DNA of 64,000 nucleotides from the NCBI RefSeq assembly GCF_050920415.1, contig NZ_CP169309.1; one strand, given 5' to 3'. A model generated the notes under the pieces. It did not search any database. It saw nothing but the letters and a program-made list of their open reading frames with translations, and was not told the DNA's origin. This document shows positions 7,390-56,654 of this stretch, one piece after another (the stretch's first letter is position 1; every line of letters begins with the position of its first letter). A program made the translations under genes and the position numbers. The stretch comes from Escherichia coli. GTDB taxonomy: Bacteria > Pseudomonadota > Gammaproteobacteria > Enterobacterales > Enterobacteriaceae.

Positions 7390-8976
7390 TTAATGCTCGC
7401 GAGTCTGGTGGAACTGAACGTCCGGATAACGTTCCTGTGCCAGGCGCAGGTTGACCATGCTGGTAGCGATGTAAGCGAGGTTATCGCCGCCATCAAGCGC
7501 CAGTTGGCTTTCGTTCTTACGCTTGAACTCTTCGAATTTCTTCGCGTCCGCACATTCTACCCAGCGTGCAGTGGCAACGTTGACTGACTCATACACTGCT
7601 TCAACGTTGTATTCGCTCTTCAGGCGCGCTACCACCACATCAAACTGCAGCACACCAACCGCACCAACGATCAGGTCGTTGTTGGAGATCGGACGGAACA
7701 CCTGCACCGCGCCCTCTTCGGAAAGCTGTACCAGCCCTTTGAGCAGCTGTTTTTGCTTCAGCGGATCTTTCAGGCGGATACGACGGAACAGTTCCGGCGC
7801 AAAGTTCGGGATACCGGTGAACTTCATCATCTCACCCTGGGTAAAGGTGTCGCCGATCTGAATAGTGCCGTGGTTGTGCAGACCAAGGATGTCGCCCGGA
7901 TACGCTTCTTCAACATGCGAACGGTCGCCCGCCATAAAGGTCAGCGCGTCGGAGATCACCACATCTTTCGCGGTGCGCACCTGGCGCAGCTTCATACCTT
8001 TTTCATATTTACCAGATACCACACGCATAAACGCCACGCGGTCGCGGTGTTTCGGGTCCATGTTGGCCTGAATTTTAAATACGAAGCCGGTAAATTTATC
8101 TTCGCTCGCCTCTACGATACGGGTATCAGTCTGACGCGGCATCGGCGCAGGTGCCCACTCTACCAGGCCATCCAGCATATGATCGACGCCGAAGTTACCC
8201 AGCGCAGTACCAAAGAACACTGGAGTAATTTCGCCCGCAAGGAACAATTCTTTGTCGAACTCGTTAGACGCGCCTTTCACCAGTTCCAGTTCGTCACGCA
8301 GCTGCTGTGCCAGATCTTCACCAACCGCAGCATCGAGATCCGGGTTATTCAGCCCTTTAACAATACGGACTTCCTGAATGGTGTGACCTTTACCGCTCTG
8401 ATAGAGATAGGTTTCGTCTTTATAAAGGTGGTAAACGCCTTTAAACAGCTTGCCGCAGCCAATCGGCCAGGTGATCGGCGCACAGCCGATTTTCAGCTCG
8501 TTCTCAACTTCATCGAGCAGCTCCATCGGATCGCGGATATCACGGTCAAGTTTGTTCATAAAGGTGAGGATCGGCGTATCGCGCAGACGGGTAACTTCCA
8601 TCAGCTTACGGGTACGATCTTCAACACCTTTTGCGGCGTCGATAACCATCAGGCAGCAGTCCACCGCCGTCAGGGTACGATAGGTATCTTCCGAGAAGTC
8701 TTCGTGCCCGGGGGTGTCGAGCAGGTTAACCAGGCAGTCGTGATACGGAAACTGCATCACAGACGTGGTAATGGAGATCCCACGCTGCTTTTCCATCTCC
8801 ATCCAGTCCGACTTAGCGTGCTGGTTGGAACCACGGCCTTTTACTGTACCGGCAGTCTGAATGGCCTGTCCGAACAGCAGCACCTTCTCGGTGATGGTCG
8901 TTTTACCGGCGTCCGGGTGAGAAATAATTGCAAAGGTTCTTCTTTTCGCTACCTCTGCGGCCAAAAGGCTTGTCAT
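7390..8976 (-). CDS. prfC: Peptide chain release factor 3, with a prophage-supplied 5' end
   Basis: [21 protein letters not shown]... GTPase matches RF3; N-terminus [13 protein letters not shown] differs from the native [14 protein letters not shown] remnant found at 56518-56564. Confidence 0.9.
8915..8928. repeat. Attachment-site core, prfC-proximal junction
   Basis: GGGTGAGAAATAAT identical to 56500-56513, extendable to ~20 bp with one mismatch; lies where the prfC coding sequence changes. Confidence 0.75.
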
Positions 8977-8992
8977 AATTGTTGTCTCTTTG

Positions 8993-9015
8993 ATTATGTA
9001 CAATCATATGTACAA
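8993..9015. repeat. Candidate integrase arm-type binding repeat, left arm
   Basis: ATTATGTACAATCATATGTACAA; near-identical copy at 56314-56335; further TGTACA motifs nearby. Confidence 0.45.
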
Positions 9016-48604: not shown

Positions 48605-49279
48605 ATGAAAACAGTCCATGACATCCGGCGGTCTAACGCCAGAAAACTGAGAGATGGTGTTGGCGGGAATTCTTCCTTTGCCACCATGATTGATCGCGAA
48701 CCAACCCAGACCAGCAGGTTTATGGGAGATGGTGCTACTAAAAATATCGGTGACAGCATGGCACGGCACATCGAAAAATGTTTCGACCTGCCTGTCGGAT
48801 GGCTTGATCAAGAACACCAGACAACGAACATCACAAAAAAACCTGATGTTTCAATCACTAATAAACAAATAACGTTAGTCCCTGTCATATCATGGGTACA
48901 GGCCGGAGCATGGAAAGAAGTTGGCTATTCTGAGGTTGATTTGAGCACAACAGAAACATATCCCTGCCCTGTACCCTGTGGCGAAATGACTTATATATTG
49001 AGGGTGATTGGTGATTCAATGATTGATGAGTACCGTCCGGGGGACATGATTTTTGTCGATCCAGAAGTACCAGCCTGCCACGGCGATGACGTTATTGCAT
49101 TGATGCACGATACAGGTGAAACCACCTTCAAAAGGTTGATAGAAGACGGGACACAGCGTTATCTCAAAGCATTAAACCCCAACTGGCCTGAGCCTTACAT
49201 TAAGATAAACGGTAATTGCTCTATCATTGGTACAGTTATTTTCTCAGGAAAACCAAGAAGATACAAAATTAAAGCCTGA
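48605..49279 (+). CDS. cI: CI-type repressor with N-terminal HTH and C-terminal S24 (LexA-like) autopeptidase domain
   Basis: 224 aa; C-terminal ...YILRVIGDSMIDEYRPGDMIFVDPEV...KRLIEDG... typical of S24 peptidases. Confidence 0.8.
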   Translation: MKTVHDIRRSNARKLRDGVGGNSSFATMIDREPTQTSRFMGDGATKNIGDSMARHIEKCFDLPVGWLDQEHQTTNITKKPDVSITNKQITLVPVISWVQAGAWKEVGYSEVDLSTTETYPCPVPCGEMTYILRVIGDSMIDEYRPGDMIFVDPEVPACHGDDVIALMHDTGETTFKRLIEDGTQRYLKALNPNWPEPYIKINGNCSIIGTVIFSGKPRRYKIKA

Positions 49280-49293
49280 TCAATGTCTATGAA

Positions 49294-49314
49294 CCTGCTT
49301 CGGCAGGTTTTTTT
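49294..49314 (+). terminator. Intrinsic terminator after cI
   Basis: CCTGCTTCGGCAGG followed by T7. Confidence 0.7.
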
Positions 49315-49474
49315 ATACTTGACAATGTACCATTAAGATACATAATGTACCTGCATAAGATATCGAACAGGCAGGACGCCCACGAAGTAGCCGTCCGGGG
49401 CATACGAAGACCGGAATGGTTCGTAAATAAAAAAGCGCCCAAGTGGACGCTTCACTTTTGAACTGGATTTATAA

Positions 49475-49717
49475 TCAATTATTTTCTTCATAAATGTTTT
49501 GTAATGTATTTATGAGATTTGGTATTTCTTTTATGGGAAAAGAATATATTGGACTTTCGATAATTTTATCAGATTCAAATGGTGGTTGTTTGCAGGACAG
49601 TTGAACTATAACTGAATTATGATCTTTAACTGGCACACAGTACCAACCACATACATCAAAAACAGGAGTATTTTGATTATCCATTATGTCCTCGACAACT
49701 AAAAACACTGCGTACAA
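49475..49717 (-). CDS. Small hypothetical protein in an AT-rich segment next to cI
   Basis: ORF MDNQNTPVFDVCGWYCVPVKDHNSVIVQLSCKQPPF...; convergent with cI. Confidence 0.35.
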   Translation of the reverse strand: MYAVFLVVEDIMDNQNTPVFDVCGWYCVPVKDHNSVIVQLSCKQPPFESDKIIESPIYSFPIKEIPNLINTLQNIYEENN

Positions 49718-50347
49718 ACCTCAAAAGCAGGGAGTTATTTATAAAATTTCATAAAGAATAATTACTGATAGCGACAATTCATTGTTCTTGAATTTTGAAA
49801 AATAGCAAGACAAAACAATGTAAACTTATTTAAGAAAAGTTCTTATTATGTAAACAAAACAACCAATTCGTTATATAGGAAAAACAAATAGTACGCAAGA
49901 AAATATTCAACAGGGGTATTACATTCAACCATAAGAGTAATCGTCTCTTTGGTAACTAATACCGAACATTTTATTGTAACACGTCGTATGGCACATGCGT
50001 CGTTAGCGGTCTGGGGACGTTAAAGGGGACAATCCACTCCTTGCTCGGGCAAACAAACCAGGTAGCCGGAATGTGCAAGTCAATGATGATGCTGATAAGA
50101 CGCCTAACCAGCGTGGCGATCCGGTTTGACGCCTGGGAAGAGACCAGGGTGCAACGATGAGGGCATTTATGGAGCCGCGACAAAGTGTGGTGCCATAACT
50201 GGCTAAGTGCTCTCAGCGTTGTGGTAATCCGCGAAATGGCGCGGCGGTAAGTATGGCGGGGTTACTCTTTCCCCGTTGAGGACACCGGATTGTCAGGTTG
50301 ACCATACGCCTGAGTGACAACCCCACCACAACAGCCACTGCTTTGGC

Positions 50348-51908: not shown

Positions 51909-52445
51909 ATGTCATTTATCAAAACTTTTTCTGGGAAGCATTTTTATTATGACAGGATAAATAAAGACGACATCGATATTAACGATATCGCGGTTTCCCT
52001 TTCAAATATCTGTCGCTTTGCCGGTCATCTTTCGCACTTCTACAGCGTCGCCCAACATGCGGTTCTTTGCAGCCAGCTGGTGCCGCAGGAATTTGCTTTT
52101 GAAGCGTTAATGCATGATGCAACAGAAGCGTATTGCCAGGACATTCCCGCACCACTGAAACGCCTTCTTCCTGACTATAAACGGATGGAAGAAAAAATAG
52201 ACGCCGTAATCCGTGAGAAATACGGGTTACCCCCGGTTATGAGTACACCCGTGAAATATGCCGATCTCATCATGCTGGCAACCGAACGCCGCGATCTCGG
52301 GCTTGATGATGGCTCTTTCTGGCCTGTACTGGAAGGCATCCCGGCAACAGAGATGTTCAACGTGATTCCACTGGCACCGGGCCATGCCTACGGGATGTTT
52401 ATGGAACGTTTTAACGATTTATCGGAGTTACGCAAATGCGCATGA
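51909..52445 (+). CDS. YfdR-like HD-domain phosphohydrolase
   Basis: MSFIKTFSGKHFYYD... with HD motif (HSVAQHAVLCSQL...HDATEAY). Confidence 0.65.
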   Translation: MSFIKTFSGKHFYYDRINKDDIDINDIAVSLSNICRFAGHLSHFYSVAQHAVLCSQLVPQEFAFEALMHDATEAYCQDIPAPLKRLLPDYKRMEEKIDAVIREKYGLPPVMSTPVKYADLIMLATERRDLGLDDGSFWPVLEGIPATEMFNVIPLAPGHAYGMFMERFNDLSELRKCA

Positions 52446-52798
52446 ATGTTTTCGAAATGGAAGGGTTTCTTCGCGGGAAATGTGTACCGCGAGATCTGAA
52501 AGTGAACGAAACAAATGCTGAGTACCTGGTACGTAAATTCGACGCGCTTGAAGCTAAATGTGCGGCACTGGAAAACAAAATAATACCAGTGTCAACTGAA
52601 CTGCCACCAGCAAATGAAAGTGTTCTGTTATTTGATGCTAATGGAGAAGGCTGGCTGATTGGCTGGCGTTCTCTCTGGTACACCTAGGGACAAAAAGAAA
52701 CCGGAGAATGGCAGTGGACATTTCAGGTCGGGGACCTTGAAAACGTCAATATCACTCACTGGGCAGTAGTGCCAAAAGCACCGGAGGCTGGAGCATAA
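52436..52798 (+). pseudogene. DUF551-like gene interrupted by an in-frame amber codon at 52685-52687
   Basis: ORF 52436..52687 ends at TAG; the same frame continues GQKETGEWQWTFQVGDLENVNITHWAVVPKAPEAGA to a TAA overlapping the next ATG. Confidence 0.45.
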
Positions 52799-53577
52799 TG
52801 ACCACATTTACCAATAAAGAACTGATTAAAGAAATCAAAGAACGAATCAGCAGCCTAGAGGTTCGAGACGATATTGAGCGCCGTGCTTATGAAATTGCTC
52901 TGGCATCGCTAGAAGAGGAGCCGGTGGCGTGGCTGCATTCAGAAAATGGCTTAGGTATTCCGGCAATAACGAGGAGTAAAAACATTGCTGACAGTTGGTT
53001 ATCAAAGGGCTGGTATGTTCAGCCGCTATATATAGCCAAGCCAGTGCCGGTAGTGCCAGATGCTCGTCCGTCTTTAAATAATGGCATAGTCGGTTTTGAT
53101 GAAGGCTGGAACGCCTGCCGCGCCGCCATGCTTCATGGTGCCGAACCTGTAAACCAAACTTACAAGTCACCACACACGCAGTTTGAACAAGTTGCTGACC
53201 TCTACGAAATGCAATTTGATGACGGTCGCACTTGTGCCTTTCACACTGATGCGCAAAAGGCTGCGCAATGGCTTCAGGTGTGCGACGGAAACAGGGTTCA
53301 GGAATACGTTAAGCTGGAACGGCTGCAGAACGCGCTGTCTGGCAACTCTCCGGTAAGTCCAGGTGGTTGGATAAGCTGTAGTGAGCGAATGCCGAATGAT
53401 AAACAGTATGTTTGGTGTTGGGGGAAGTCTTACGGCTGGACTGAGTGCGATACCTTCGAAGGGTATTACGATTGGTCGAGAAACAAATGGTGGGCAGTTA
53501 CTGACAATGAGGAAGAACAGGCATCGAAAGTAACCCACTGGATGCCACTACCGGAGCCGCCGCAGGAGGTGAAGTAA
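52798..53577 (+). CDS. DUF551 domain protein
   Basis: C-terminal ...QYVWCWGKSYGWTECDTFEGYYDWSRNKWWAVTDNEEEQASKVTHWMPLPEPP. Confidence 0.55.
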   Translation: MTTFTNKELIKEIKERISSLEVRDDIERRAYEIALASLEEEPVAWLHSENGLGIPAITRSKNIADSWLSKGWYVQPLYIAKPVPVVPDARPSLNNGIVGFDEGWNACRAAMLHGAEPVNQTYKSPHTQFEQVADLYEMQFDDGRTCAFHTDAQKAAQWLQVCDGNRVQEYVKLERLQNALSGNSPVSPGGWISCSERMPNDKQYVWCWGKSYGWTECDTFEGYYDWSRNKWWAVTDNEEEQASKVTHWMPLPEPPQEVK

Positions 53578-53771
53578 TGAACAACTTAATGACAACTAAA
53601 CAAGTCGCCGATTTCTGTGGTGTTTCAGTATCGACAGTTCTTCGCTGGAACAGCGTAAACAGGAGAACTGGTCAGAAATACAGGCCTGACTTTCCAGATC
53701 CTGATATTAAATCCTGCCCAAATAAATGGGCATCACACAAGATTTACAGATTTGCGGGAGTGATTGAGTAA
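53577..53771 (+). CDS. xis: Excisionase / AlpA-family HTH protein
   Basis: MNNLMTTKQVADFCGVSVSTVLRWN...; last gene of the early-left operon, near int. Confidence 0.7.
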   Translation: MNNLMTTKQVADFCGVSVSTVLRWNSVNRRTGQKYRPDFPDPDIKSCPNKWASHKIYRFAGVIE

Positions 53772-54053
53772 TATGTATTAGCTTAGATGTGAGCTGACAC
53801 ATCTATGCTTAGATGCCAAACCTAATCTGAGCGTCCACTCTTTACCAAGAGCGGACGTTACCAATGACCATATGACATGAATCGATAAGATCAAAACATT
53901 ATCGCCAAGAAATGTCATACCATTGATACAAATAAAATTGATTACCCCCTTACTCTTGTTGAAAAGTTAGTCGTAGAGTACCTATCGCAATGTAATCAGC
54001 TTTAATCATCTGAAAATTACTCCTTAAAAATTAGCTTTTATATACTGAACAAA

Positions 54054-54773
54054 TTAAATCTCTGTTTCTTTTCCTGCTCGGCTCAACCAATACTCCATTG
54101 TTTGAGTATGAATCTTTTCAGCGTATATTTTATCAATTAATTTATCTTGTTTTTCTTTAATGACTTCACGCAGTGAATCATATAACATAAAAAAACGTTC
54201 ATCATCTTCCTCATTATTACCGTAATTTATTTGATTGAGCTCTGAAAAAATATGATAGTACCTTTTTTTCTTGGTCCCCGGCAATATTAAAACCAAGCCA
54301 CATTGATCATATTCGAATTCACCTTTATGGGCAGCAAAGTTATGTCTAACATTCATAATAGAATCATGTAAATCTCTATATTTTTCTGGCACATGCTTTC
54401 TCTGCAATGTGAATCGACGCCCTTTCGCCTCTGTAAAACACTTACCGTAAGTAACAACTTTTGATATAAACAAAGACTTTAATATTAGATTCTTTTCTAA
54501 ATCCGGATAAATAAAGTGTTGTTCTTTATTAATGTTATTACAAATATTTTTTATTATATTCTCCCAACCAATAACATTCCGAAGATCTTTATCAAGCAAC
54601 TGTAAGGCCACATATTGTTCTACAAAGCGGCCTTTTAAAGGTATTCGTGGTAATATTACACCTTTCTGCTTATAAATTCTTTCTATCGTATTATCTGGAT
54701 ATTGGATCTTCCTTATTTCTATTCCGTCTTCTTCTGATACCCTTACTAATGGTTCATTTTTTAACTTTGACAT
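54054..54773 (-). CDS. Hypothetical protein (239 aa), strongly AT-rich, between int and xis
   Basis: Clean ORF co-directional with int; no family recognised; contains RHNFAAH (an R-x5-H pattern). Confidence 0.5.
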   Translation of the reverse strand: MSKLKNEPLVRVSEEDGIEIRKIQYPDNTIERIYKQKGVILPRIPLKGRFVEQYVALQLLDKDLRNVIGWENIIKNICNNINKEQHFIYPDLEKNLILKSLFISKVVTYGKCFTEAKGRRFTLQRKHVPEKYRDLHDSIMNVRHNFAAHKGEFEYDQCGLVLILPGTKKKRYYHIFSELNQINYGNNEEDDERFFMLYDSLREVIKEKQDKLIDKIYAEKIHTQTMEYWLSRAGKETEI

Positions 54774-55012
54774 GTTAACCCTCTTAAATAAAAAACTAAC
54801 TTTATCCAGATAGTGTCCGTTAAGAAGTTTTCGTTACAACTAAGTTTCTAGGTAAATCATGAATCGACCTATAGTATCAAAAACATTTGGTGGTAAACAT
54901 CTGCATTTATCAAATGGCAGGAGCGATTTAGGGGCATAGGGATAGTGATGATATCGATACCCGCCCCCTCTTATGTCAACACAATGGCGTAAACTTAACG
55001 CTCACATCTCGC

Positions 55013-56269
55013 TCAAAGTGTGCTAGGAGATTTGGTTATGTTCAGGTGATACAAACCGTCAGTTTGACAATTAACAATCGATTCAACCCTCTTCCACCAT
55101 GCCAGGTAAGCTTTACGCTGTTCTTCTAGATAATCACTCTTATCATAAACTTGCCATACCCCTGGCAGCTTATGACCAAGCATAATTTCTGCGATATGAG
55201 GCGCAGTAAGATCAGAAAAATTTGTTCGAGCTGTACGTCTCAAGTCATGAAGAGACCAATGAGGGAATTGATATCCTAAACACCGCCATGCGTACTGCAT
55301 TAAATTGTAAGGCAGCGACTGCAATGATGTCCGACCAACGGGTTCCCTGCTTCCTTCCTTAGTAAAAAGCATATCGGAACCATTGTTCATAGAGATAGCG
55401 TACTTTATAAGCTCTTCAACCGGTTCAATAATGGGCCGCTTTAGCGGTTCGCCTGTTATCTCCCCAGTCTTATGTCGTTCTGGTGGTACAGTCCATACTT
55501 TATTAATGAAATCAAAATCGTCCACCCGGGCGGTAATTAGCTCTGAACTACGGCAACCAAAATGCAGCAATAGTTTAATGAAGGCCCGGTATTTAGGAAC
55601 CATTCGAGAACCATCGATCGCAGCATAAAGGATTTTAATTTCATCATGTGTCAGAAACCGTTTCTTCTGACCTTTACGGATATCCATATCTTTACCCGTG
55701 ATATCCGACAGCGGGCGAGTTTCAATGAGCTTTCTCTTATACGCCCAGACATGGGCCTGCTTTGCGTTAATTAGCAATCGGTCTGCTATTGCTGGAGTCT
55801 TAGTGCTAAGAGGCTCCAGGACTTCTAACCAATCATGCAATGTAGCTGCATCGTGAGGGATATTCCCGATTTTAGAGAACAGGTGCAGCTCAAACGAGCG
55901 AAGTATCTGTTCAGAACCTTTTTTATTTTTTACACAATATGCTTCATACCAAGCACGGATCACAGACTCTACCGTCATGGCTTCAGTAGCTTTTCGTTTT
56001 TCAGCCTGCTTGACCAATCGTGGATTACGGTTTGACTCGAGTTCACCACGAAGACGGATAACTTCTTCTCTGGCCTCTTTTAATCCAGTTGCCGGGTAAG
56101 TTCCGATATCAAGACGCTCACCTTTCCCTGCCCATTGATAACGATATTGGAACACTACGCGACCTTTCGGTGATACTCTGACAGACAGACCATCACGATC
56201 GGATTTAACCAAAACCTTATCACGTTCCTTTCCAACGACTGAACGCAACCACGCATCAGACAGCGCCAT
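55013..56269 (-). CDS. int: Tyrosine site-specific integrase
   Basis: 418 aa; C-terminal catalytic region with ...HDLRRT... and ...MLGH...; adjacent to the att core. Confidence 0.9.
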   Translation of the reverse strand: MALSDAWLRSVVGKERDKVLVKSDRDGLSVRVSPKGRVVFQYRYQWAGKGERLDIGTYPATGLKEAREEVIRLRGELESNRNPRLVKQAEKRKATEAMTVESVIRAWYEAYCVKNKKGSEQILRSFELHLFSKIGNIPHDAATLHDWLEVLEPLSTKTPAIADRLLINAKQAHVWAYKRKLIETRPLSDITGKDMDIRKGQKKRFLTHDEIKILYAAIDGSRMVPKYRAFIKLLLHFGCRSSELITARVDDFDFINKVWTVPPERHKTGEITGEPLKRPIIEPVEELIKYAISMNNGSDMLFTKEGSREPVGRTSLQSLPYNLMQYAWRCLGYQFPHWSLHDLRRTARTNFSDLTAPHIAEIMLGHKLPGVWQVYDKSDYLEEQRKAYLAWWKRVESIVNCQTDGLYHLNITKSPSTL

Positions 56270-56335: not shown

Positions 56336-56499
56336 GATTTTTGATGAAAGCAAGCTGATCGATTTAAAGTTACATGAAAGAGTTTTCAATTAAAGAAGCT
56401 ACATAACCAAATGTATTTAAATGAGTTACATAACTCAACCTAAATTAACTGAAAGGATTTTGAAAGAGTAAAAGAGCTTTAATTTGGGCTTAATTATTG

Positions 56500-56513
56500 G
56501 GGTGAGAAATAAT
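56500..56513. repeat. Attachment-site core, yjjG-proximal junction
   Basis: GGGTGAGAAATAAT, identical to 8915-8928. Confidence 0.75.
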
Positions 56514-56517
56514 GGCA

Positions 56518-56564
56518 AAAGTGCGGCGCTTCGCCACCTCTTGCAAATAAGGAGACAACGTCAT
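56518..56564 (-). pseudogene. prfC: Displaced native 5' end of prfC (the att core 56500-56513 encodes its last residues)
   Basis: Reverse strand reads ATGACGTTGTCTCCTTATTTGCAAGAGGTGGCGAAGCGCCGCACTTTTGCCATTATTTCTCACCC = [22 protein letters not shown], then leaves the prfC frame at the core. Confidence 0.8.
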
Positions 56565-56654
56565 AATTCTTTCTTCTTGAGTAAGCGGCATCGCGCCGCG
56601 CTTGTTGAAAACGAAAAATTGCGGCTATTTTACCCATCAACGGGGGGGAGGCAA

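What the first reader, a model, noticed from the sequence alone, without database searches (positions are those of the whole stretch)
53772..55012. Orphan AT-rich gene between integrase and excisionase: candidate accessory or defence gene
A clean 239 aa ORF (54054-54773) sits in a markedly AT-rich island between xis and int, where the surrounding prophage is GC-balanced. Integrase-proximal slots are known hotspots for horizontally acquired anti-phage and abortive-infection genes. I recognise no family. It contains RHNFAAH, which fits the R-x(4-6)-H pattern of HEPN RNase domains, but that could be chance. Flanked by repeat-rich non-coding DNA (AGATGTG...CACATCT palindrome at about 53780-53810).
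Basis: partly seen in the sequence, partly recalled or inferred. Interest (0 to 1): 0.7.

Follow-up and report, generated by a model that had tools for sequence, protein, structure and literature searches.

The report
Solitary HEPN-fold gene in prophage cargo slot
The AT-rich 239-codon gene between the integrase and excisionase of this E. coli prophage is a real, swappable cargo gene whose protein has the fold and conserved Arg/His motif of HEPN RNases, so it is a good but untested candidate for a one-protein anti-phage (abortive infection) system.

Summary
ORF 54054-54773 (-), 239 aa, 31% GC, lies in a 1.2 kb AT-rich segment between int and xis of a ~47 kb lambdoid prophage inserted in the 5' end of prfC.

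It is a real gene: dN/dS is 0.10-0.18, about 500 clusters of relatives exist, and the AlphaFold2 model has pLDDT 94.

No Pfam, NCBIfam, PADLOC or PDB sequence match was found. PHROG 8440 (function unknown) covers the family.

RHNFAAH is not chance. R143 is invariant and H149 is 99% conserved in 108 relatives. The motif sits at the end of helix 3 of a four-helix bundle, where HEPN domains carry Rx4-6H. All 12 annotated Foldseek hits in AFDB are HEPN families (Cthe_2314, Apea, AbiU2, RiboL-PSP, AbiV).

The slot is variable. 749 of 5,426 E. coli genomes carry this integrase and 69 carry this gene. Nine other unrelated AT-rich cargos were seen, one a known anti-phage dGTPase. Relatives sit alone in accessory positions of other mobile elements.

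DefensePredictor (Science 2026) already lists this exact protein (WP_000040218.1) as a predicted, untested defence gene.

Best reading: a new family of solo HEPN abortive-infection RNases. RNase activity and defence are inferred, not shown.

The parts
54054..54773 (-). 239-aa protein-coding gene (RefSeq WP_000040218.1; PHROG 8440). Predicted HEPN-fold protein. N-terminal three strands at residues 9-36. Helices at 49-79, 92-111, 130-147 and 188-221. A beta-hairpin at 156-181. Conserved residues: D63, Y109, K111, F113, R119, H136, R143, H149, G151.
   Evidence: ORF. PHROG 8440, E 1.4e-142. Family alignment and conservation. AF2 model with pLDDT 94.4. Foldseek hits to HEPN families. dN/dS 0.10-0.18. 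RefSeq accession.
54774..54930 (-). Upstream non-coding region that travels with the gene. It holds the ribosome-binding site AAGAGGG (54779-54785) and a candidate extended -10 element, TGATACTAT (54871-54879). It is inferred to be the gene's own promoter region.
   Evidence: Nucleotide homology with the Cronobacter copy, which sits in a different prophage slot, covers 54046-54930 (81% identity) and stops there. Alignment. The consensus promoter scan found nothing at its threshold, so the promoter is an inference from reading the sequence.
53831..55066 (.). Variable cargo segment of the int-xis slot (1,236 bp, 33.6% GC). The right breakpoint at 55066/55067 lies 54 nt inside the 3' end of int. 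The left breakpoint varies between 53803 and 53864.
   Evidence: blastn against nine prophages with the same int at the same site but other cargo. GC content and lack of similarity between cargos.
53784..53805 (.). Perfect 8-bp inverted repeat (TAGATGTG / CACATCTA, 6-nt loop) just after the xis stop codon. It lies in the backbone shared by all cargo variants and is a likely transcript-end hairpin between the convergent units.
   Evidence: Sequence. Fold z-score -5.9. It lies within the conserved left flank.
53830..53859 (.). Second hairpin (11-bp stem with one mismatch, 4-nt loop) at the left edge of the variable segment, about 195 nt downstream of the gene's stop codon.
55013..56269 (-). Tyrosine integrase, same strand as the cargo gene and directly upstream of it. 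Its last ~18 codons lie on the cargo side of the recombination breakpoint.
   Evidence: PHROG 1 integrase, E 4.5e-74. RefSeq annotation. Breakpoint.
53577..53771 (+). Excisionase (64 aa, helix-turn-helix). It is the last gene of the rightward early operon and is convergent with the cargo gene.
   Evidence: PHROG 1553 excisionase, E 4e-36. It is present in prophages with other cargos, so it is not a partner specific to this gene.
56495..56575 (.). Right prophage junction: a remnant of the original 5' end of prfC (att region). Its imperfect partner is at about 8910-8990, inside the 5' end of the intact prfC.
   Evidence: Exact 14-bp repeat. Alignment of the two junctions. prfC ORF. RefSeq annotates a 69-bp pseudogene fragment here.

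Best explanation
The gene encodes a stand-alone HEPN-superfamily protein, the founder of an uncharacterised family (PHROG 8440). The prophage carries it as exchangeable cargo.

Proposed mechanism:
- The lysogen makes the protein from its own promoter region, possibly helped by read-through from int.
- The protein stays inactive until an infecting phage supplies a trigger.
- Its Arg143/His149 site, probably completed by dimerisation as in other HEPN enzymes, then cuts RNA (tRNA, mRNA or rRNA).
- This stops translation and aborts the infection.
- The poorly conserved N-terminal strands and the hairpin after the motif are the likely trigger-sensing surface.

Shown here: the gene is real and under purifying selection. 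It has the HEPN fold and motif. It lies in a variable cargo slot. Its relatives are solitary genes on mobile elements.

Inferred: RNase activity, regulation, the trigger and the anti-phage phenotype.
For: Fold and motif:
- The AF2 model has pLDDT 94.4 and a four-helix core.
- R143 is invariant and H149 is 99% conserved. The residue after the Arg is always H or N.
- The motif lies at the end of helix 3 (130-147) and the start of the following loop. There is an insert between helices 2 and 3. This is exactly how Anantharaman et al. 2013 define HEPN (PMC3710099).
- All 12 annotated hits among the top 50 Foldseek AFDB matches are HEPN families: Cthe_2314-like at TM 0.87, Apea-like, AbiU2-like, RiboL-PSP and AbiV (E 2.5e-18 to 3.8e-7).
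- The only recurrent Pfam hint is HEPN_AbiU2, in 3 of 108 members.

Cargo and defence context:
- 749 of 5,426 E. coli genomes have this integrase, and 69 have this gene.
- Nine other unrelated AT-rich cargos occupy the same slot, including a dGTPase (PADLOC E 8.7e-105).
- Homologues lie directly after int in P2-like prophages. That position is reported as a minor P2 defence hotspot (bioRxiv 10.64898/2026.02.27.708500).
- Other homologues lie between the lysis genes and terminase of a lambdoid element recorded as an E. coli plasmid, in a Vibrio filamentous phage, on conjugative elements and at the tail-fibre end of Cronobacter prophages.
- No partner gene is conserved across these contexts.
- DefensePredictor Table S10 lists this exact protein as predicted defensive, with mean log-odds 9.62.

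Precedents: HepS (PMC13043305) and Tha (PMC11087260) are prophage-encoded HEPN RNases that act as abortive-infection effectors triggered by phage tail proteins. HepS is a single-protein system; Tha-1 is encoded with a small inhibitor, Ith-1.

Purifying selection: dN/dS is 0.10-0.18.
Against: - No statistically significant sequence-profile match to any HEPN model. Pfam finds nothing for the query. The best match in any family member is i-E 5.6e-3.
- PADLOC and NCBIfam find nothing, even for distant members.
- The PDB sequence and profile searches are empty. Foldseek against PDB is empty.
- The spacing is Rx5H rather than the commonest Rx4H.
- The conserved acidic residue D63 lies in the first long helix, not clearly where the HEPN acidic residue is described.
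- A constitutively expressed RNase with no antitoxin needs some form of auto-inhibition, which is not shown.
- No experiment exists. DefensePredictor did not test this protein, and only 45% of the predictions it did test were validated.
- An AT-rich gene may be silenced in the lysogen.
Confidence: 0.5

Rival explanations
1. It is a HEPN-type toxin that serves the mobile element itself rather than host defence. It would act as an addiction or stabilisation module, or as a weapon against competing plasmids, prophages or satellites. It would be kept in check by an unrecognised antitoxin: a small RNA, a small ORF, or a protein encoded elsewhere in the element.
For: The structural evidence for HEPN is the same. 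Many HEPN proteins are toxins of toxin-antitoxin pairs (7ae2 HEPN-MNT). Family members also sit on conjugative elements. In 2 of 69 E. coli carriers, IS elements disrupt the 3' part of the gene, which would fit a costly gene.
Against: No partner gene is conserved across 12 contexts. There is no MNT-like gene nearby. There are no tandem repeats and no Rfam hit that could be an RNA antitoxin. Only the gene plus about 157 bp upstream are shared between E. coli and Cronobacter. The IS insertions may simply reflect the preference of IS1 for AT-rich targets.
Confidence: 0.15
2. It is a phage accessory protein with a non-nucleolytic role, for example a counter-defence protein, a regulator of lysogeny, or an RNA- or nucleotide-binding protein. 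It would reuse a HEPN-like helical bundle without RNase activity.
Against: Non-catalytic HEPN domains typically lose the Rx4-6H motif. Here R143 and H149 and five further polar residues (D63, Y109, K111, R119, H136) are invariant or nearly so down to about 20% identity. That is the signature of an active site. The gene is dispensable and replaceable in the slot.
Confidence: 0.15
3. It is a helper of site-specific recombination, either a directionality factor or an integrase accessory protein. This would explain its position next to int in both lambdoid and P2-like prophages.
For: It lies directly downstream of int on the same strand here. It overlaps the int stop codon in two P2-like prophages and lies 34 bp after int in a third.
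Against: About 680 E. coli genomes carry a near-identical integrase (mostly 95-99% nucleotide identity) without this gene; in those inspected it sits at the same site. Homologues occur far from any integrase: next to lysis and terminase genes, in a filamentous phage, on conjugative elements and at the tail-fibre end. A separate excisionase is present.
Confidence: 0.02

Closest known systems
HEPN superfamily families Cthe_2314, AbiU2, Apea, RiboL-PSP-HEPN and AbiV (Anantharaman et al. 2013, PMC3710099)
   Same: It shares the four-helix bundle, the Rx4-6H motif at the end of helix 3, the polar residue after the Arg, and the insert between helices 2 and 3. Whole-length Foldseek matches reach TM 0.6-0.87. 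Most are small proteins from abortive-infection or conflict contexts.
   Different: No significant Pfam match to any of these models. The motif is R[HN]xxxAH[SKA]G with a 5-residue spacer. There is an N-terminal three-stranded element and a beta-hairpin directly after the motif. Further invariant residues are Y109, K111, R119 and H136.
HepS of Salmonella prophage Gifsy-1 (Sargen et al., Nature 2026, PMC13043305)
   Same: It is a single HEPN-domain protein encoded as prophage cargo in a lambdoid phage. It is produced constitutively and acts alone as both sensor and effector of abortive infection. It is the best functional model for this gene.
   Different: [quoted passage not shown] No sequence similarity was detected: the PDB sequence and profile searches returned no HEPN chain. 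The trigger (tail-tip protein J), the tRNA anticodon target and the tetramer are known for HepS and unknown here.
Tha-1/Tha-2 of Staphylococcus aureus prophages (Rostol et al., Nat Microbiol 2024, PMC11087260)
   Same: It is a prophage HEPN RNase encoded with a small gene annotated as xis on the opposite strand, in the phage's lysogeny region, and it is activated by tail proteins. Here too the gene is flanked by int and a convergent xis.
   Different: Tha has a 300-aa architecture with a C-terminal HEPN domain. Its 'xis' is really an overlapping antisense inhibitor, Ith. Here xis does not overlap the gene, matches a true excisionase family, and is kept in prophages with other cargos.
Anti-phage dGTPase cargo in the same int-xis slot
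   Same: It occupies the identical position between the same integrase and excisionase at the same chromosomal site.
   Different: It is an unrelated protein with an unrelated mechanism (dGTP depletion). It only shows what kind of gene the slot carries.
DefensePredictor 'uncharacterized clusters' (Science 2026, PMC13092281, Table S10)
   Same: The identical protein WP_000040218.1 is listed as predicted defensive, with mean log-odds 9.62.
   Different: That is a machine-learning prediction. No HHblits or Foldseek hit is recorded for it, and it is not among the cloned and tested systems in Tables S6 and S8 as held. The HEPN assignment and the slot analysis are added here.

Membership tests
HEPN superfamily | Core of four helices in an up-down bundle | tested here: met
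HEPN superfamily | Conserved Rx4-6H motif with a polar residue (N, D or H) after the Arg | tested here: met
   R143 is present in 108/108 and H149 in 99% of relatives. The spacer is 5 residues. The residue after R is H or N in every motif variant listed. Definition from PMC3710099.
HEPN superfamily | [quoted passage not shown] | tested here: met
   R143 lies within helix 130-147 and H149 in the following loop. Residues 112-129 are non-helical and carry conserved F113, G118 and R119.
HEPN superfamily | Second conserved acidic residue, typically Ex3[KR], near the active site | tested here: inconclusive
   The family consensus LIEKDLR (residues 59-65) contains E/D61-x3-R65 and the invariant D63. 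It lies in the first long helix of the model, whereas the paper places the acidic residue in helix 2.
HEPN superfamily | Significant sequence or profile match to a recognised HEPN family model | tested here: not met
   Pfam finds nothing for the query. HEPN_AbiU2 matches only 3 of 108 members, best i-E 5.6e-3. NCBIfam, PADLOC and PDB profiles find nothing. hhalign against one validated RiboL-PSP-HEPN protein gives probability 0.1. No relative carries a precomputed Pfam domain.
HEPN superfamily | Whole-protein structural similarity to recognised HEPN proteins | tested here: met
   Foldseek against AFDB50: all 12 annotated hits in the top 50 are HEPN families, with probability 1.0, E 2.5e-18 to 3.8e-7 and TM 0.56-0.87. 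Foldseek against PDB found no solved relative.
HEPN superfamily | RNase activity from a composite dimeric active site | not testable with these tools
   This needs biochemistry or an oligomer model with coordinates.
HepS family (solo HEPN of Gifsy-1) | Sequence homology to HepS (the clade shares 35-50% identity) with an Rx4H motif | tested here: not met
   No PDB chain matches the protein or the family profile at E up to 10 apart from noise. The spacer is 5 residues, not 4. Caveat: the presence of the HepS entries in the PDB copy was assumed, not verified.
HEPN-MNT type II toxin-antitoxin | Adjacent minimal nucleotidyltransferase antitoxin gene | tested here: not met
   The flanks are 239 bp and 282 bp of non-coding DNA. 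No nucleotidyltransferase gene is adjacent in any of 12 contexts.
Type III toxin-antitoxin (ToxIN/AbiQ-like) | Tandem-repeat antitoxin RNA next to the toxin gene | tested here: not met
   No tandem repeat in 53772-55012 and no Rfam match.
Catalogued anti-phage defence systems (PADLOC-DB v2) | Match to a model of a known or candidate defence protein | tested here: not met
   Zero families for the query and for 10 distant members, apart from one chance-level hit.
Prophage cargo ('moron') in a variable hotspot | Presence or absence and replacement by unrelated genes between conserved flanking core genes, atypical composition, and own regulatory region | tested here: met
   69 of 749 genomes with this integrase carry the gene. 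Nine other cargos share no similarity and are all 32-43% GC. The gene plus 157 bp upstream moves as a unit to a different slot in Cronobacter.
Abortive-infection / anti-phage defence gene | Experimental protection against phage | not testable with these tools
   Only a machine-learning prediction exists (DefensePredictor mean log-odds 9.62). It was not found among the tested systems.

The most novel reading that the evidence does not exclude
This is the founder of a new single-protein immune family. A variable beta-strand module (N-terminal strands plus the hairpin inserted after the catalytic motif) would directly recognise a phage protein. It would then unlock an atypical HEPN site, Rx5H plus invariant H136, Y109, K111 and R119, with a target or chemistry different from known HEPN RNases. 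In addition, the int-xis slot of prfC-integrating lambdoid prophages would be a defence hotspot. Its other eight or more orphan cargo families, none matching PADLOC, NCBIfam or (for the three tested) Pfam, would then be further unknown immune systems.
Probability: 0.12. Interest if true: 0.7.

Novelty: new member of a known kind. Interest (0 to 1): 0.42.

Why it matters
If it is confirmed, it adds a compact (239 aa) self-contained HEPN immune protein family. The family has about 500 clusters at 50% identity across Proteobacteria and is invisible to Pfam, NCBIfam and PADLOC.

It would also show that the int-xis slot of a prophage lineage found in about 14% of complete E. coli genomes is a place to look for new defence genes. 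Nine other cargos were sampled there; eight of them (ten proteins) have no recognised family.

The related phage 2H10 carries the gene in the same slot. That gives a natural system in which to ask how a prophage avoids triggering its own RNase, the question opened by HepS and Tha.

Tried and rejected
Searches that found nothing:
- Sequence-family searches on the query and on ten distant members: Pfam, NCBIfam, PADLOC, PDB phmmer and PDB profile. Nothing beyond PHROG 8440 and three weak AbiU2 hints.
- Foldseek against PDB: no significant match.
- hhalign of the family profile against one validated RiboL-PSP-HEPN protein taken from DefensePredictor Table S8: no alignment, probability 0.1. A single-sequence template has little power, so this says little.
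- Two further large homologue searches, one with the full alignment and one with the conserved core (residues 49-156) at E up to 10. The aim was to reach relatives with Pfam annotation. Every hit lacks any Pfam domain.
- Antitoxin RNA or repeats in the flanks: none.
- Consensus promoter and terminator scan: nothing on the gene's strand upstream at the tool's threshold.
- The other slot cargos in DefensePredictor supplements: no accession found, but those files are truncated as stored.
- Pfam on three other cargos: nothing.

Readings rejected:
- The 'xis' as a Tha/Ith-like inhibitor specific to this gene. It matches an excisionase family and is retained with other cargos.
- An integrase accessory role, because the slot is variable.
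- A chance ORF (P about 1e-9, dN/dS 0.1).
Full report
WHAT IS THERE

The window holds E. coli chromosome (deoC ... osmY, prfC at 7390-9003; yjjG, rimI, holD from 56655) interrupted by a ~47 kb lambdoid prophage. The region studied is 100% identical to strain MFDS1022581 and about 97% identical to the sequenced phage 2H10 (Glaedevirus).

The prophage lies in the 5' end of prfC. An imperfect ~75-bp duplication of that region, with a 14-bp exact core, lies at about 8910-8990 and 56495-56575.

At the right end, the order is:
- xis: 53577-53771 (+), PHROG excisionase, E 4e-36.
- 282 bp of non-coding DNA.
- The ORF: 54054-54773 (-).
- 239 bp of non-coding DNA.
- int: 55013-56269 (-), PHROG integrase, E 4.5e-74.

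GC falls to 0.29-0.34 over the ORF and its flanks, against 0.44-0.53 around it. The ORF is 31% GC and the window 51%.

A second hairpin lies at 53830-53859. Together they fold much better than shuffled sequence (z -5.9). There are no tandem repeats and no Rfam families in the cassette, so 'repeat-rich' is overstated.

IS IT A GENE

Yes.
- With the local composition, 239 stop-free codons have P about 1.4e-9.
- A strong ribosome-binding site precedes the ATG.
- dN/dS is 0.18 against phage 2H10 and 0.10 against the 86%-identical Cronobacter copy.
- An exhaustive HMMER scan of 1.84 billion cluster representatives finds 500 relatives at E<=1e-3 and 159 at E<=1e-10. Nearly all are 220-260 aa long.
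- AlphaFold2 with a 108-sequence alignment gives pLDDT 94.4 and pTM 0.86.

WHAT FAMILY

No Pfam, NCBIfam, PADLOC or PDB sequence match exists for the protein, for the family profile, or for ten distant members. PHROG 8440, of unknown function, covers the whole family.

The alignment shows:
- Five invariant residues: D63, Y109, R119, H136, R143.
- Near-invariant residues: K111, F113, A148, H149, G151.

In the model the core is a four-helix bundle (helices 49-79, 92-111, 130-147, 188-221). R143 sits at the end of the third helix and H149 in the loop that follows. A non-helical insert (112-129) separates helices 2 and 3. [quoted passage not shown]

Structural searches:
- Foldseek against AFDB50 gives 243 hits at E<=1e-3. 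Among the top 50, every hit that carries a name is a HEPN family: Cthe_2314-like (32% identity, TM 0.87), 'HEPN domain-containing', Apea-like x2, AbiU2-like x5, RiboL-PSP-HEPN x2 and AbiV.
- Foldseek against PDB finds nothing.
- The only recurrent Pfam hint in family members is HEPN_AbiU2, in 3 of 108, best 5.6e-3.

I conclude it is a member of the HEPN superfamily on structural and motif grounds.

The most variable parts are the N-terminal strands, the hairpin 153-187, helix 4 and the C-terminus. The most conserved parts are the end of helix 2, the following loop, and helix 3 with the motif.

IS THE SLOT VARIABLE

Yes. A 2.9 kb query spanning xis, the ORF and int matches 749 of 5,426 complete E. 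coli genomes, but only 69 carry the whole of it.

In the others the same integrase, in the genomes inspected at the same yjjG/prfC site, is followed by something else. I inspected nine alternatives:
- A dGTPase (PADLOC E 8.7e-105; also matches NCBIfam 'anti-phage dGTPase' models, though below their curated score cut-offs).
- Eight cargos made of proteins of 110-428 aa. None has a PADLOC or NCBIfam match, and none of the three tested has a Pfam match.

The ten cargos share no similarity except about 68 bp next to int. All are AT-rich, at 32-43% GC.

The right breakpoint is nearly constant at 55066/55067, which is 54 nt inside the 3' end of int. The left breakpoint varies between 53803 and 53864.

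HOW THE GENE TRAVELS

In Cronobacter sakazakii the 86%-identical gene sits at the opposite end of a siphovirus prophage, after the tail fibre and umuDC-like genes. Nucleotide homology with the window covers only 54046-54930, that is, the ORF plus about 157 bp upstream. So the mobile unit is the gene with its own upstream region, which I take to contain its promoter. A TGATACTAT extended -10-like element lies at 54871-54879. This is an inference, because the consensus scan reported nothing there.

More distant relatives (27-43% identity) occur in these places:
- Directly after int, next to the att site, in three P2/186-like prophages of Enterobacter, Yersinia and Citrobacter. A 2026 preprint reports this position as a minor P2 defence hotspot.
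- Between the lysis genes and HNH/terminase of a lambdoid element recorded as an E. coli plasmid.
- In a Vibrio filamentous phage.
- On two conjugative elements.
- In the cargo end of a myovirus prophage.
- In a small integrative element.

No neighbouring gene is conserved across these contexts. The family is therefore a solitary gene that occupies accessory positions of many kinds of mobile element.

WHAT IS ALREADY KNOWN

The exact protein is RefSeq WP_000040218.1. No paper in the searchable library mentions this accession in its main text.

It does appear in Table S10 ('uncharacterized_clusters') of the DefensePredictor paper (Science 2026, PMC13092281). The entry reads: predicted_defensive TRUE, mean log-odds 9.62 (range 6.3-11.6), and no HHblits or Foldseek hit to known defence proteins. 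It is not in the tables of cloned systems as held. In that study 45% of tested predictions were validated.

Two precedents make the proposed mechanism concrete:
- HepS of Gifsy-1 is a solo HEPN protein that is produced constitutively. It is held inactive as a tetramer and is switched on by the tail-tip protein J of infecting siphoviruses. It then cleaves tRNA anticodon loops (PMC13043305).
- Tha of S. aureus prophages is a HEPN RNase that is triggered by tail proteins and is encoded with a small antisense gene long mis-annotated as xis (PMC11087260).

MECHANISM PROPOSED (confidence about 0.5)

The lysogen expresses the protein, which is auto-inhibited. A component of an infecting phage binds the variable beta-strand surface. 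The R143/H149 site, probably completed across a dimer, then cleaves RNA, and the infection aborts.

The convergent early operon that ends at xis reads toward the gene. After induction it might dampen the gene's expression, and the two hairpins lie between the two units. This is speculation.

Shown: the gene, its fold and motif, the variable slot, and the solitary mobile distribution. Inferred: RNase activity, regulation, the trigger and the phenotype.

RIVALS

- A toxin that serves the element itself rather than the host (0.15). No partner or antitoxin was found.
- A non-catalytic accessory or counter-defence protein (0.15). This is hard to square with seven near-invariant polar residues.
- An integrase helper (0.02). 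The variable slot refutes it.

VERDICT

The gene is a new, uncharacterised family within a known kind: single-protein HEPN abortive-infection candidates. Machine learning has already flagged it as a probable defence gene, but it has not been annotated as HEPN or tested.

It is a worthwhile candidate for experiment, but not surprising to specialists. The slot, with eight further orphan cargos, is arguably the more useful lead.

Noticed in passing
window 53831-55066 and loci L003-L005, L016-L021: The int-xis slot of this prophage lineage holds at least ten mutually unrelated AT-rich cargos across E. coli. Apart from one dGTPase, the cargo proteins (110-428 aa; for example WP_000653746.1, WP_244464531.1, WP_052993680.1, WP_225092812.1, WP_052939666.1) match nothing in PADLOC or NCBIfam. 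The three tested also match nothing in Pfam. It is a possible unexplored defence hotspot.
   Followed up: partly
window 55013-55067 (3' end of int): The recombination breakpoint between cargo variants falls at 55066/55067 in seven of the nine comparisons (55058 and 55072 in the other two). This is inside int, so the last ~18 codons of the integrase are exchanged together with the cargo. The int ORF here is 418 aa, against 404-411 aa (mostly 407) in prophages with other cargos and in some strains with this cargo.
   Followed up: partly
window 8910-8990 and 56495-56575: The prophage is integrated in the 5' coding end of prfC. The phage side supplies a replacement N-terminus ([13 protein letters not shown]...). 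A remnant of the original 5' end stays next to int and is annotated in RefSeq as a 69-bp pseudogene.
   Followed up: partly
window 49200-50000: A second AT-rich patch (GC 0.29-0.38) lies just downstream of the CI-like repressor gene (48605-49279, +). It contains an 80-aa orphan ORF (49475-49717, -) with no PHROG match. The position is analogous to the lysogen-expressed cargo next to cI in lambda.
   Followed up: no
L034 (E. coli bR_120_Kylling) and L035 (DETEC-S792); L033 (CUVET16-321): Among the 69 E. coli carriers, an IS3 element splits the gene in one strain and an IS1 replaces its C-terminal end in another. A third strain has IS1 in the 3' non-coding region. This could reflect a fitness cost of the gene or just the preference of IS elements for AT-rich DNA.
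   Followed up: partly
L023-L026 (Cronobacter sakazakii) and L012-L014: In Cronobacter, and in the prophage that carries P0028, the gene sits immediately after umuC-like genes or fragments. A small DUF4113 (UmuC C-terminal) fragment is repeated downstream of it, as if the cassette had inserted into the 3' end of umuC.
   Followed up: no
L015 (RefSeq annotation of the identical strain), window about 52260-53580: RefSeq marks three genes just upstream of xis as pseudogenes (an internal stop and truncated DUF551), and it does not annotate xis at all. In the window a 259-aa ORF (52798-53577) looks like a fusion of two DUF551-type segments. The early-left region may be rearranged in this strain.
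   Followed up: no
L002 (Vibrio phage 10N.286.54.E4_PE002), 7482-8219: A 27.6%-identical family member is carried by a filamentous (Tubulavirales) Vibrio phage. The depositors' note on it reads 'endonuclease'.
   Followed up: no
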